From Eledone cirrhosa (lineage: Eukaryota), in the NCBI GenBank assembly GCA_964016885.1, contig OZ024740.1, positions 395,312,001 through 395,376,000 of the forward strand: DNA of 64,000 bases. Direction: 5' to 3'. Shown one piece after another: positions 15,832 to 30,290 of the stretch. The first letter of the stretch is position 1. The number at the start of each line of letters is the position of its first letter. The notes under the pieces are model-generated. The model searched no databases and was not told the DNA's origin. It saw only the letters and a list, made by a program, of their open reading frames with translations. Made by a program: the position numbers and the translations under genes.

Positions 15832-15918
15832 ATAAATATATATATATATATATATATATATATATATATATATATATACGATATTAATAAATGGAAACTA
15901 TATTTATAAAACCATATT

Positions 15919-15983
15919 TATTTCATTATATATATTTCAGGGATACCACATTAAATTATGGTATGCCTTCATCAGACAAAATA
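15919..15983 (-). ncRNA. Minimal type I hammerhead ribozyme (family B)
   Basis: Revcomp: tattttgt-CTGATGA-aggcataccataatttaatgtggtatccct-GAAA-tatata-TA-atgaaata; 8-bp stem I, palindromic stem III. Confidence 0.8.
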
Positions 15984-16453
15984 CAATATATAACAGTTTT
16001 ACAAATAGCTTTGACATACCCTTTTAAAATGCAACCATTACTTTTGGAGGCTGTCTGGATAGTGATTTGTTTATATTATTTTAATAAGTCATAGTGTTAA
16101 GCACAATTAGAAAAAAACGGAGAGTTTTTCTATCTGTATGATGACTTGATATCTCTGTTGCTTTCCTTTGTTTTTCTTATTTCTTCCTTTTTTCTTTCTT
16201 TTTTATTTCCTCCTATCTTTATTTATCTCTTTCTTTTCTCCATACATTTCTCTCTCTCTCCGATATTTCTCCAGGTTTTCTTTCTCTCTCTCCGTCTTTC
16301 TTTTTTTTTTTTCTCTCCGTCTTTTTTCTAATTGTGCTTAACACTATGACTTATTAAAATAATATAAACAAATCACTATCCAGACAGCCTCCAAAAGTAA
16401 TGGTTGCATTTTAAAAGGTATGTCAAAGCTATTTGTAAAACTGTTATATATTG

Positions 16454-16518
16454 TATTTTGTCTGATGAAGGCATACCATAATTTAATGTGGTATCCCTGA
16501 AATATGTATAATGAAATA
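16454..16518 (+). ncRNA. Minimal type I hammerhead ribozyme (family B)
   Basis: tattttgt-CTGATGA-stem II-GAAA-tatgta-TA-atgaaata; stems I and II pair. Confidence 0.8.
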
Positions 16519-16701
16519 AATATGGTTTTATAAATATAGTTTCCATTTATTAATATCGTATATCTACTCCAAAAACTTGTCGAGTGCTTTATATCAGTTA
16601 TAAAAATATTTACTTGTTGTATCCCAACAATTTTAAATAGAACTTTTGCATATATATATATATGTATATATATATATATATATATATATATATATATATA
16701 T

Positions 16702-17301
16702 AAGTCTCAGACCCATACAGCAGCACAGACTCCACTACAGCAATGAAGAGGCGGATTTTCAGGTCTCTACGAAGGTCCGACTTCCACACCGATCTCAAGC
16801 TGTGGCACGCCGCCCAGGCCTTGCTCTTCCTCTCAACCACATCATCCTCCGTATTCCCAATCTTTGCTCCCAAATACAGGAAGTCCTCAACCAATTCCAG
16901 CGGCTTCCCGCCTACATTAGTGATCCCCTCTGGCTTCTCAACATTCTCTACCAGATATTTTGTTTTAGTCTCATTCATTCTCAGCCCCACACTCATCGAC
17001 ACAGTCTCAACTTCCCGCATCAAATCCTCTGCCTCCTTCACTGTATTTGTCACCAAAACTATGTCGTCGGCAAATTCAGCATCCGATACCTTTTTCGCCC
17101 CAACTCTCCTGCTCTGAGCCGGTGCTACAGTAAAGCCAGAGTCCTGGTGTTTCTCCAGTGCAAGGCGCATACAATAGTCCACTACGATAATAAAAAGGTA
17201 GGGAGCCAATGTATCTCCCTGGAGCACTCCAGCCAGTATCTCAAAGAACTCTGTCATCCCATCAGGTGTAATGACTTGGGCTTTGGTGTTGGTGTAGAGC
17301 A
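16702..17301 (-). mobile_element. Internal RT fragment of an RTE-like LINE embedded in (TA)n
   Basis: Open frame [56 protein letters not shown]; neither element end present. Confidence 0.88.
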
Positions 17302-18086
17302 TATATATATATATATATATATATATATATATATATATATATATATATATATATATATATATATATATATATATATATATACATATATATATACATATAT
17401 ATATATATATATATATATGTATATATATATGTATATATATATATATATATATGTATATATATGTATATATATATATATATATATATATGTATATATATGT
17501 ATATATATGTATATATATATATATATATATGTATATATATGTATATATATATATATATATGTATATATATGTATATATATATATATACATATATATACAT
17601 ATATATATATATATACATATATATACATATATATATGTATATATATATATATATATATGTATATATATGTATATATATATATATATATATATGTATATAT
17701 ATGTATATATATATATATATGTATATATATGTATATATATATATATATATATATGTATATATATGTATATATATATATATGTATATATATGTATATATAT
17801 ATATATATGTATATATATGTATATATATATATATATGTATATATATGTATATATATATATATATATATATGTATATATATGTATATATATATATGTATAT
17901 ATATGTATATATATATATATATATATGTATATATATGTATATATATATATATGTATATATATGTATATATATGTATATATATATATATATATATATATAT
18001 ATATATATATATATATGTATATATATATATATATATATATATGTATATATATATATGTGTGTATATATATATATATATATATATAT
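17301..18086. repeat. (TA)n microsatellite with TG/CA interruptions
   Basis: Direct reading. Confidence 0.97.
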
Positions 18087-27024: not shown

Positions 27025-27090
27025 TATTTTGTCTGAGGAAGGCATAGCATATTGTTAATATGATATCCCTGAAATATATATAATGAAATA
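27025..27090 (+). ncRNA. Minimal type I hammerhead ribozyme (family B)
   Basis: tattttgt-CTGAGGA-aggcatagcatattgttaatatgatatccct-GAAA-tatata-TA-atgaaata. Confidence 0.8.
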
Positions 27091-27734
27091 AATATGGTTT
27101 TATAAATATAGTTTCTATTTATTTAATATTGTATATAAATATATATATATATAAATATATATATATATATAAATATATATAAATATATATAAATATATAT
27201 ATAAATATATATATATATATAAATATATATATATATAAATACATATATATATAAATATATATATAGATATAAATATATATATATATATAAATATATATAT
27301 ATAAATATATATATATATATAAATATATATATATATAAATATATATATATAAATATATATATATATAAATATATATATAAATATATATATAAATATATAT
27401 ATATAAATATATATATATAAATATATATATATAAATATATATATATATATATATAAATATATATATATAAATATATATATATAAATATATATATATAAAT
27501 ATATATATATAAATATATATATATAAATATATATATATAAATATATATATATAAATATATATATATAAATATATATATATAAATATATATATATAAATAT
27601 ACATGGAAAGTTATATTTAAATTGTTGGGTTAACAACGAGTAAATATTTATAACTGATATAAAAGCACTCAACAAGTATTTGGAGTATATTTATGATATT
27701 AAATAAATGGAAACTATATTTATAAAACCATATT

Positions 27735-27800
27735 TATTTCGTTATATATATTTCAGGGATATCATATTAACAATATGTTATGCCATCTTCAGACAAAATA
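27735..27800 (-). ncRNA. Minimal type I hammerhead ribozyme (family B)
   Basis: Revcomp tattttgt-CTGAAGA-tggcataacatattgttaatatgatatccct-GAAA-tatata-TA-acgaaata. Confidence 0.78.
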
Positions 27801-29899
27801 CAATATAAACAGTCTTATAAATAAATAGATACGACATACCTTTCAATCACCTTGCATTTGGGAGGTTGATTTGGTAGTAAAAAATATTGTGGACAGTTGT
27901 AAAAAGAAAGAGATAAAGAGAGAAAGAAAGAGAAACGAAGAAAAAGAAGAAATGCATGTGACTAAATAGAGGGATATAGAAAGATAGATAAGAGAAGAAC
28001 TTCATGTAAAGAAACAGAGAGAAATATATATAGAGAGAGGAAAAAAAGAAAGAGATAGATAGAGATAGATAGAGATAGATAGAGAAATTTGAAGTTGAGT
28101 ATCGGTTGATACATTTATTTATTTATTTATTTATTTATTTAGCTCTAGTATTAATGTAAAGAGAGATGTATGTAGTTAAGAGAGAAAATAGCCGTTATAT
28201 AGAGAGAAAAAAGAGAAAATGAAAAAGAGAAAATGAAACATAACCAGACATAAACGATGCAGAATTTAAAACCGCTATGTTTTATCCGTAGAAAATATTA
28301 GTTCGTATAAAACAGGCATTATAATGTAAGTACCAGTATTCATGAATGAGACATGTATCTATAATGTGTGAAAAGTAATGATCTTATGTCTAGTTTTTAA
28401 AAATTCATATGTTATATCATAATTATAAACAAACTCCCAATTCACACGAAAACATTCTCATTGTCCTATAAAAATTCAAGTATACATATATGTGTGTATA
28501 TATACACATATATATATAGAGTCTATATTAATTTTAACAATACTATTCTTGTCTTTATTCTACCTGATTGTCGATCAAGCAGAAATAGAGAGCAGACTTC
28601 AATATATTAATAAAAATAAAAATAAAAATAAAAATAAAATAAAAATAAAAATAAAAATAAAAATATCAGAGACAAGAAAATAAATAAACAAATAAACAGA
28701 AAACTAAAACATTTAATATTAAAAATTAAAAATATTATAAAATATTAAAAAATATTAAAAAATAATACAAATAAAACACAGAGATCAGCCTTTCAAAGTT
28801 AATTGACAATATATTGCCAAGATCATCATAAGCATCAGAGTCGAAACAGATAAAACAAAAATTGTTTACCAAATCCTGTCTAGCAGAAATCATTCCAAAA
28901 GTTTAGGATACCCATTTGGTCTACATATGTTCTTATATATAATATAGAAGTTTATCTAGTTTAAAATTTAATTCGATATATTTGGAGCATCAGCTTTTAG
29001 GGTAGTTTAATTATTCATGAAGAATGTTTTAATAAAAAGAATGTTTTAATTTTTATTTTTATTTTTAAAGAATGTTTTATTTTTATTTTTATTTTTATTT
29101 TTATTAATATATTGAAATCTGCTCTCTATTTCTGCTTGATCGACAATCAGGTAGAATAAAGACAAGAATAGTATTGTTAAAATTAATATAGACTCTATAT
29201 ATATATGTGTATATATACACATATATATGTATACTTGAATTTTTATAGGACAATGAGAATGTTTTCGTGTGAATTGGGAGTTTGTTTATAATTATGATAT
29301 AAACATGAATTTTTAAAAACTAGACATAAGATCATTACTTTTCACACATTATAGATACATGTCTCACTCATGAATACTGGTACTTACATTATAATGCCTG
29401 TTTTATACGAACTAATATTTTCTACGGATAAAACATAGCGGTTTTAAATTCTGCATCGTTTATGTCTGGTTATGTTTCATTTTCTCTTTTTCATTTTCTC
29501 TTTTTCTCTCTATATAACGGCTATTTTCTCTCTTAACTACATACATCTCTCTTTACATTAATACTAGAGCTAAATAAATAAATAAATAAATAAATGTATC
29601 AACCGATACTCAACTTCCAAATTTCTCTATCTATCTCTATCTATCTCTTTCTTTTTTTCCTCTCTCTATATATATTTCTCTCTGTTTCTTTACATGAAGT
29701 TCTTCTCTTTATCTATCTTTCTATATCCCTCTATTTAGTCACATGCATTTCTTCTTTTCTTCGTTTCTCTTTCTTTCTCTCTTTATCTCTTTCTTTTTAC
29801 AACTGTCCACAATATTTTTTTACTACCAAATCAACCTCCCAAATGCAAGGTGATTGAAAGGTATGTCGTATCTATTTATTTATAAGACTGTTTATATTG

Positions 29900-29965
29900 T
29901 ATTTTGTCTGAAGATGGCATAACATATTGTTAATATGATATCTCTGAAATATATATAACGAAATA
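29900..29965 (+). ncRNA. Minimal type I hammerhead ribozyme (family B)
   Basis: tattttgt-CTGAAGA-stem II-GAAA-tatata-TA-acgaaata. Confidence 0.75.
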
Positions 29966-30290
29966 AATATGGTTTTATAAATATAGTTTCCATTTATTTA
30001 ATATCATATATATAAATATATATATATATAAATATATATATATATAAATATATATATATATATATATAAATATATATTTATATATATATATAAATATATA
30101 TATATATTTATATATATATATAAATATATATATATATATATATATATATATATATATATATATAAATATATATATATATATATATATATATAAATATATA
30201 TATAAATATATATATATATATATATATATATATATATATAAATATATATATATATATATATATATATATATATATATATATATATATATA

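What the first reader, a model, noticed from the sequence alone, without database searches (positions are those of the whole stretch)
15879..30008. Three family-B insertions each have two outward-facing 3' ends at two fixed positions ~90 nt apart
Seen: each insertion has a 'long' end (..aaat[ag/at]aactt[tt/tc][g/c]a|TATA at 16650, 24185, 27601) and, in opposite orientation, a 'short' end (..attt[a]ttaatat[c/t][g/a]|TATA at 15879, 27131, 30008). Arm lengths vary enormously: 29 bp vs 2.9 kb in PLE B, 1.44 kb vs 0.93 kb, and 0.53 vs 0.25 kb. The short end coincides with an internal TATA of the element. Established: inverted pLTRs with a short 3' tail occur in Penelope. Inference: both sides of the cut (TA)n prime cDNA synthesis at two defined RNA sites by TA base-pairing (twin priming), and the two cDNAs are then joined.
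Basis: partly seen in the sequence, partly recalled or inferred. Interest (0 to 1): 0.75.

Follow-up and report, generated by a model that had tools for sequence, protein, structure and literature searches.

The report
Hairpin-guided double-ended Penelope retrotransposon insertions
These are broken copies of a Penelope-like jumping gene whose mirror-image insertions nearly always end once at each of two fixed points, each lying just before a small predicted RNA hairpin conserved across distant relatives, which suggests that both cut DNA ends likely start copying the element's RNA at hairpin-marked sites.

Summary
The three insertions are Hydra-clade Penelope-like elements (PLEs) in (TA)n. In this genome, 81 of 88 head-to-head family-B insertions have one long and one short end 89-91 nt apart. 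None is long-long or short-short, and 7 have one displaced or broken end. A further 26 copies have one arm only. The one-sided 'tail' and two internal reverse-transcription starts are published (PMC3846280, PMC8557442, PMC11167929).

Full-length copies run through the long end into the ORF. TA pairing (2-6 nt) does not pick the sites. Each end lies 7-9 nt before a bulged hairpin (RCUC-stem-UY-GAGY) found exactly twice per 4.2-kb unit. The pair recurs in 20 of 39 distant Hydra-clade loci, with compensatory changes, and 13 of 17 ends there abut a hairpin. Fold-back cannot build 27 of 73 insertions.

Likely mechanism: both ends of a staggered cut prime cDNA, one per hairpin, and the cDNAs join. 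No RNA or biochemical test was possible. I did not find the hairpin pair or the pairing count in the papers searched. This scan noted both twin priming and the hairpins earlier on other DNA.

The parts
15879..16124 (-). Insertion 1 (subfamily B1), short arm; ends at the short site
16122..16650 (+). Insertion 1, long arm (pLTR plus 91-nt tail); ends at the long site
16455..16520 (+). Minimal type-I hammerhead-like motif (CUGAUGA, stem II, GAAA, palindromic stem III). Further copies at 15925-15975 (-), 27033-27084 (+), 27741-27792 (-), 29908-29959 (+). Predicted cut about 48 nt before the short site; matches neither terminus
   Evidence: pattern; fold; no Rfam hit
16559..16565 (+). Internal short site: TA pad between the last element-specific base and hairpin 1
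16566..16585 (+). Hairpin 1 (ACUC-stem-UC bulge-GAGU) inside the tail, 7 nt after the short site
24186..24216 (-). Insertion 2, tail-only long arm (about 31 bp)
24217..27131 (+). Insertion 2 body: 5'-truncated, frameshifted RT plus GIY-YIG-type ORF (to 25675), 3' UTR, pLTR; ends at the short site
27602..29050 (-). Insertion 3 (subfamily B3), long arm; uses the CCATG|TAT register
27667..27686 (-). Hairpin 1 of insertion 3
29041..30006 (+). Insertion 3, short arm
22338..30334 (.). Four TA tracts (22338-22678, 23248-24185, 27132-27601, 30007-30334) with TAAAT interruptions on the same strand; likely one pre-existing compound microsatellite split by successive insertions
   Evidence: TAAAT 23/69/32/10 against ATTTA 0/0/0/2
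18096..22337 (+). Family A: related full-length Hydra-clade PLE with an intact ORF (18194-20662). Hairpin 2 at 18164-18180 before the ATG, hairpin 1 at 22189-22222; tail 167 nt
30334..31458 (.). Family D: short inverted insertion with hairpin 1 at 30355-30390 (-) directly after its short site

Best explanation
These are 5'-truncated insertions of Hydra-clade Penelope-like retrotransposons whose two outward ends sit 7-9 nt before two copies of a predicted RNA hairpin; the element's protein likely binds those hairpins and likely uses both 3' ends of a staggered cut in (TA)n to prime one cDNA at each, after which the two cDNAs would be joined head to head. Shown: the clade motifs, the two termini, one-of-each pairing, both termini being internal in the tandem unit, hairpin position and covariation, a TA-rich pad before the hairpins, and that fold-back cannot make 27 of 73 insertions. 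Inferred: the hairpins are protein-binding signals that set the start site; 2-6 nt of TA pairing sets the register; both cDNAs come from one RNA or one donor; joining uses short complementarity; the cluster of inner ends about 270 nt before the long end is run-off at an RNA 5' end. Taken from the related PAc element (PMC11167929): both strands are cut and extended, and reverse transcription starts internally at two sites.
For: Pairing: 81 of 88 long+short, 0 long-long, 0 short-short; family A 17 of 20 head-to-head insertions long+short with a 167-nt tail. Read-through at the long site. The hairpin pattern occurs exactly twice per unit, sense strand only, in B1, B3 and A. Genome count of the hairpin-2 pattern is 1160 against 5 for the reversed control. 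Metagenome relatives: 20 of 39 loci with at least 175 nt upstream have two hairpins and 32 have at least one; shuffles average 0.005 and 0.65; ORF windows 0 and 4 of 406. The first pair above the bulge, which the pattern did not fix, is Watson-Crick in 49 of 50 and switches between C-G and U-A. 13 of 17 non-edge 3' ends lie within -8 to +4 nt of a hairpin (one hairpin called by eye). A TA run of 4 nt or more precedes 21 of 44 hairpins, against 10% of control 12-mers and 9.8 +/- 2.7 in shuffles. In 27 of 73 the short arm reaches more than 20 nt further upstream than the long arm, so neither arm can be a copy of the other. Inner overlap of 3 nt or more in 29 of 47 gap-free junctions against 26% simulated. 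Duplication-like repeats at 9 of 73 sites against 1.2 +/- 1.1 shuffled. Arms differ less within than between insertions: 1.0% vs 1.5% in B1, 0.44% vs 1.2% in B3.
Against: All evidence is genomic; no RNA or protein experiment. Family-B hairpins are weak alone (-1.3 kcal/mol, z -0.4 to -0.6). 26 copies have one arm only. Family D shows 2 long-long pairs beside 12 long-short. Family C has two fixed ends without this hairpin pattern. Four of 17 metagenome ends fall elsewhere, and 7 of 39 loci show no hairpin. Four of the 9 duplication-like repeats lie in periodic tracts, and some sites show none. 26 of 73 inner junctions have a gap or extra bases. 14 non-private B1 variants occur on one arm only, and arm similarity could come from later conversion. 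Tail-length long arms are not clearly enriched (6 vs 4 arms of 110 nt or less), although a one-RNA model might predict that. In PAc the start site is reported as not homologous to the cut DNA and does not differ between strands in vitro.
Confidence: 0.68

Rival explanations
1. One cDNA is primed at the target and the inverted arm is made by self-priming (fold-back) or by a jump to an antisense transcript whose 5' end lies at the short site.
For: Proposed for palindromic junctions in PMC3846280 (passage). In 16 of 73 insertions both arms stop near -270 and form near-perfect palindromes. It would give one-of-each pairing automatically.
Against: Fold-back on its own cDNA is impossible in 27 of 73. 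11 single-arm copies end at the short site on TA. The short site carries the same sense-strand hairpin and TA pad as the long site. An antisense template cannot be excluded without RNA data.
Confidence: 0.12
2. The two sites are RNA 3' ends (termination or processing marked by the hairpins), or endonuclease cuts that resolve a DNA intermediate; priming is ordinary end priming.
For: PMC8557442 attributes the tail to endonuclease-mediated resolution. PMC11167929 says RNA-seq read ends fall on the two sites. A hairpin could be read as DNA or by a nuclease.
Against: The hairpins lie 3' of the sites, so an RNA cut there loses them. PAc initiates internally in vitro and needs RNA downstream of the site. 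Independent RNA ends would give long-long and short-short pairs (0 of 88). The hammerhead cut site matches neither end.
Confidence: 0.12
3. One reading: TA base pairing with the cut target alone selects the two RNA sites.
For: Every junction is compatible with at least 2 nt of pairing; the B3 long end uses two registers; TA pads are enriched before hairpins across the clade; three displaced ends fall on internal TA-like spots.
Against: 75-110 equal or better TA runs per unit are unused. B3 uses 2-3 nt matches and ignores a longer TA run 4 nt away at the short site. Site position tracks the hairpins while the tail varies from about 55 to 167 nt.
Confidence: 0.04

Closest known systems
Hydra clade of Penelope-like elements (Craig et al. 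2021, PMC8557442; read: section 11, section 15, passages, supplement part 2)
   Same: RWK-like, DKT, CxCX5C, CxxC and CxH motifs, C-terminal GIY-YIG-type domain, hammerhead-like motif, (TA)n target. One retrieved locus (L322) carries the Penelope-1_NV hammerhead row of their File S2 and has both hairpins.
   Different: Unit is 4.2 kb rather than under 3 kb; tail is 89-91 nt rather than 30-40. The word 'hairpin' is absent from their supplement, and I saw no start-site motif or pairing count in the sections read.
PLE inverted pLTR with one-sided tail (Arkhipova et al. 2013, PMC3846280, passages; PMC8557442 Fig. 2 legend; Schostak et al. 2008, PMC2377424, passages)
   Same: Partial tandem, adjacent inverted 5'-truncated copy, tail optionally on one of the inverted pLTRs, 8-10 bp target duplications reported.
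   Different: Described qualitatively and explained by self-priming or endonuclease resolution; here counted (81 of 88, none alike) and either arm can be the long one.
PAc Poseidon in vitro (Frangieh et al. 2024, PMC11167929; read: parts 1-2 of 4 of the main text, passages, text of supplements 1-2)
   Same: Two adjacent internal start sites bounding the tail; both strands cut and extended; RNA 3' of the start required; predicted dimer; hammerhead cleavage not needed.
   Different: Different clade; starts lie inside the ORF in an AC-rich stem loop and are called non-homologous to the target; no duplicated hairpin and no one-of-each rule reported in what I read. The figures and the GenBank supplement could not be seen.
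L1 twin priming (recalled, Ostertag and Kazazian 2001; not read)
   Same: Both target ends prime; inverted 5' piece; microhomology at the inner junction.
   Different: In L1 the first primer uses the poly(A) end, the second site is variable and the two cDNAs copy non-overlapping RNA. Here both sites are fixed and internal and both arms cover the same stretch.

Membership tests
Hydra-clade PLE | Single ORF with RT and C-terminal GIY-YIG-type endonuclease | tested here: met
   Translations and alignment A2. Pfam gave no hit for these ORFs, so the assignment rests on motifs and on 700 homologues at E<=0.001. No intact family-B ORF was seen in the 7 near-full-length loci checked.
Hydra-clade PLE | RWK motif and DKT in place of DKG | tested here: met
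   RIRWR / RVRWR and KSDKT / HADKT in B1 and A
Hydra-clade PLE | CxCX5C linker, CxxC and CxH; no CCHH | tested here: met
   CNCRDRSKC, CDLC, CKH/CRH; no CCHH pattern seen in the aligned endonuclease region
Hydra-clade PLE | Hammerhead ribozyme in the pLTR | tested here: inconclusive
   Core motif and stems I-II present; no Rfam match; activity untested
Hydra-clade PLE | Insertion into (TA)n | tested here: met
   Flanks of 73 insertions
Hydra-clade PLE | Generally short (<3 kb) | tested here: not met
   Units are 4204, 4157 and 4194 nt because of a long 3' UTR. The paper gives this as a tendency, not a defining trait.
Hydra-clade PLE | Placement in an RT tree with reference PLE clades | not tested
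   No reference set was available as tool-given sequence; indirect anchor through L322
EN+ PLE insertion layout | Partial tandem pLTR, inverted 5'-truncated copy, tail on one end | tested here: met
   L091 and L180 full-length copies
L1-type twin priming | First primer at the RNA 3' end, variable second site, non-overlapping cDNAs | tested here: not met
   Both sites fixed and internal; arms overlap in RNA coordinates
L1-type twin priming | Target-site duplication and inner microhomology | tested here: inconclusive
   Both enriched over controls but seen in a minority or masked by (TA)n

The most novel reading that the evidence does not exclude
Hydra-clade PLEs integrate by coordinated double priming. 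A protein pair clamps one RNA through two tandem copies of a clade-wide bulged hairpin, and each RT uses one end of the cut with a short TA pad as an alignment region. This would explain the tail, the inverted pLTR and the one-of-each rule at once, give the cis signal that short non-coding families borrow, and define a portable 20-nt start signal for a telomerase-related RT.
Probability: 0.35. Interest if true: 0.8.

Novelty: new variant of a known kind. Interest (0 to 1): 0.57.

Why it matters
How PLEs form their inverted, tailed insertions is named as an open question in PMC8557442, and the one in-vitro study found two internal start sites without saying what places them. A short, covarying RNA motif sitting just after both sites across a whole clade makes this directly testable by mutating, swapping or moving a hairpin. 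It also gives a way to recognise non-coding passengers of these elements, and a handle on template positioning in an RT group related to telomerase. The layout itself is ordinary and published.

Tried and rejected
Unmasked self-BLAST was swamped by TA tracts (redone masked). The genome search with the insertion-2 pLTR found no candidates, so that subfamily is represented only by the window copy and chance relatives. Exact-match measurement of inner microhomology failed because of divergence; BLAST overlaps with a simulated control were used instead. One search mislabelled the arms; this was corrected. Rfam has no match for the hammerhead or the hairpin. Sequencing runs: no RNA holder listed, so no reads were laid. 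Homodimer prediction of a relative's first 490 residues: no answer, and my alignment was not used. Idea that the element writes the TA tracts itself: set aside, because four neighbouring tracts share one interruption polarity regardless of element orientation; no empty site was examined. Idea that hammerhead cleavage sets a terminus: no inner or outer end at about -141 among 146 arms. Idea that inverted flank duplications (L020, L062) are made by family B: not pursued; they look like insertions into older palindromes. PMC5785218 is not held. The covariation count (99.2% paired, 29 two-sided changes, 0 of 500 shuffles) is on 20 hand-picked hairpins whose outer four pairs were fixed by the search pattern, so the unselected 49 of 50 is the fairer figure. 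Of 78 metagenome loci, 52 with sequence before the ORF start were scanned, 45 were checked for ends and 39 had at least 175 nt upstream. Literature searches that did not turn up the hairpin pair or a pairing count. Most subscription papers are outside the library.
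Full report
What is in the window. The stretch holds several Penelope-like elements (PLEs) stacked in TA tracts. The three family-B insertions are head-to-head pairs: 15879-16650, 24186-27131 and 27602-30006. Each has one arm ending at a 'short' site and one arm running 89-91 nt further to a 'long' site. The insertions belong to three subfamilies. The ORF pieces of insertion 2 and of full-length relatives carry the motifs listed for the Hydra clade in PMC8557442 (section 11): RWR, DKT, CxCX5C, CxxC and CxH. 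Homologues at about 35-46% identity are mostly unnamed; two named ones come from a cephalopod and a coral. A minimal hammerhead-like motif lies in each pLTR but has no Rfam match.

Genome-wide test of the pairing rule. Four searches of the own genome (40 candidates scored each out of 516-1575) and three fetches gave 180 loci, merged to 109 stretches and mapped on two natural full-length units of 4204 and 4157 nt. All 73 clean head-to-head insertions have one long and one short end; 56 came from queries holding neither end. Random pairing would give this with P about 1e-21. Eight more were confirmed by hand, including arms of only 13 and 31 nt. Seven do not conform: three have a long end plus an end at a TA-like spot upstream of the short site, and four have one arm broken at a non-TA flank. 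None is long-long or short-short. Twenty-six copies have a single arm (15 long, 11 short). The related family A, with a 167-nt tail, gave 17 long+short, 1 ambiguous and 2 disrupted. The short family D gave 12 long+short (about half inferred across a gap beyond my 406-nt reference) and 2 long-long, so the rule is not absolute across families.

Both sites are internal. Full-length copies continue through the long site to the ORF start about 50 nt on. This agrees with the PAc study, where reverse transcription starts internally at two sites that bound the tail, both target strands are cut and extended, and RNA 3' of the start is required (PMC11167929). The one-sided tail on inverted pLTRs is described in PMC3846280 and PMC8557442. 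The layout is therefore known.

What places the sites. TA pairing alone does not. Each unit has 75-110 alternating runs of 4 nt or more, while the shared bases are 5 and 6 nt in B1 and only 3 and 2-3 nt in B3. The B3 long end occurs in two registers, 25 and 9 copies, each compatible with pairing. A motif RCUC-upper stem-UY bulge-GAGY occurs exactly twice per unit, on the sense strand only, in B1, B3 and A, 7 and 9 nt after the short and long sites in family B. The second copy's pattern before an ATG occurs 1160 times in the genome against 5 for the control, across several families. In metagenome relatives (78 loci) the order is hammerhead, hairpin 1, hairpin 2, ATG. Of 39 loci with at least 175 nt upstream, 20 have two hairpins and 32 at least one, against means of 0.005 and 0.65 in 6273 shuffles. 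Spacing is 55-83 nt. The first pair above the bulge, not fixed by the pattern, is Watson-Crick in 49 of 50 and alternates between C-G and U-A (see also on a hand-picked set). Of 17 non-edge 3' ends in those loci, 13 lie within -8 to +4 nt of a hairpin start and 4 lie elsewhere. A TA run of 4 nt or more precedes 21 of 44 hairpins, against 10% of control 12-mers. A covariance model gave 54 hits in 28 loci not used to build it, 53 of them outside the matched ORF. The family-B hairpins are weak when folded alone, so they would need a protein to hold them.

How the two arms arise. The long arm holds tail sequence that the short arm lacks, so it cannot be copied from the short arm. In 27 of 73 insertions the short arm also reaches more than 20 nt further upstream, so it cannot be copied from the long arm. 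These need two template-directed syntheses. Both outer ends are sense 3' ends on TA, the side where target priming starts (established for target-primed reverse transcription). Inner junctions overlap by 3 nt or more in 29 of 47 gap-free cases against 26% in simulation; 26 of 73 have gaps or extra bases. Interrupted direct repeats of 9-21 nt span both junctions in 9 of 73 against 1.2 +/- 1.1 shuffled, four of them in periodic tracts. Arms of one insertion are closer to each other than to other insertions, and one lineage variant sits on both arms in 5 of 5 carriers, but 14 shared-type B1 variants are on one arm only; this fits one donor without proving one RNA. Inner ends cluster 255-285 nt before the long site: 15 of 40 arms in a sample not biased to that point, against 1 and 2 in the neighbouring intervals. 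I read this as run-off at an RNA 5' end, in line with the pLTR promoter shown for Penelope (PMC2377424, passages), but no RNA was available.

Mechanism and odds. Most likely (0.68): hairpin-positioned priming from both ends of a staggered cut, TA pairing setting the register, and joining of the cDNAs. A protein pair on one RNA is the simplest reason for one-of-each pairing, but it is untested here (0.35). Rivals: fold-back or antisense template (0.12), RNA ends or endonuclease resolution (0.12), TA pairing alone (0.04).

Novelty. Member of a known clade with a known layout and published internal double start. The counted one-of-each rule and the clade-wide hairpin pair were not found in nine literature searches, in the Craig supplement, in a 2026 retrozyme preprint (10.64898/2026.07.22.740005; parts 1-2 of 5 and a term search) or in Rfam. 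Figures and one supplement of PMC11167929 could not be seen and may show the PAc stem loop in more detail. This scan recorded twin priming and the paired hairpins earlier on other DNA; those notes are unchecked and are not counted as support.

Noticed in passing
window 33024-33069 (-), 42010-42060 (+), 54076-54122 (+), 58246-58292 (+): Four more hairpin-model hits in other short repeat families, each about 15-35 nt before a TA or CA tract; likely non-coding passengers of the same machinery.
   Followed up: partly
window 33000-33199: Long palindrome carrying a hammerhead-like core and one of these hairpins, between two TA tracts.
   Followed up: no
window 22679-23248: Family C: inverted pair with a hammerhead-like core and two fixed ends 59 nt apart (11 and 18 copies in fetched loci), without the RCUC hairpin after its short site.
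   Followed up: partly
L251:1226-1731; L270:469-701: Family D long-long inverted pairs; family D also forms tandem copies with a period of about 635 nt (L249, L261).
   Followed up: partly
family B units, about 255-285 nt before the long end (window about 16370-16395): Third fixed boundary: inner (5') ends of arms cluster here, strongest in B3. Family D has a similar cluster at -335.
   Followed up: partly
L091 unit positions 2780-2964; window 810-969, 34426-34767, 38265-38449, 41500-41638 and others: The B1 3' UTR carries a dispersed repeat of about 190 nt found many times in the window.
   Followed up: no
window 14260-15830 and 16704-17300: Insertion 1 is flanked by two different LINE fragments, each broken within coding sequence at a TA tract; the left one has RT and PHD matches. 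The flanks are not one element.
   Followed up: no
window 44312-50669: TA-rich tract of 6.4 kb.
   Followed up: no
window 58600-62091 (-): Interrupted LINE with endonuclease, RT and zf-RVT matches.
   Followed up: no
window 36837-37316: 16 copies of a 30-bp tandem repeat, 97% matches.
   Followed up: no
L020 and L062: Flanks on both sides of the insertion are inverted copies of each other; probably insertion into an older palindrome.
   Followed up: no
L324:2470 region: A distant relative's end abuts (ATTT)n rather than (TA)n, and its pad before the hairpin ends in ATTT, again compatible with short pairing.
   Followed up: no
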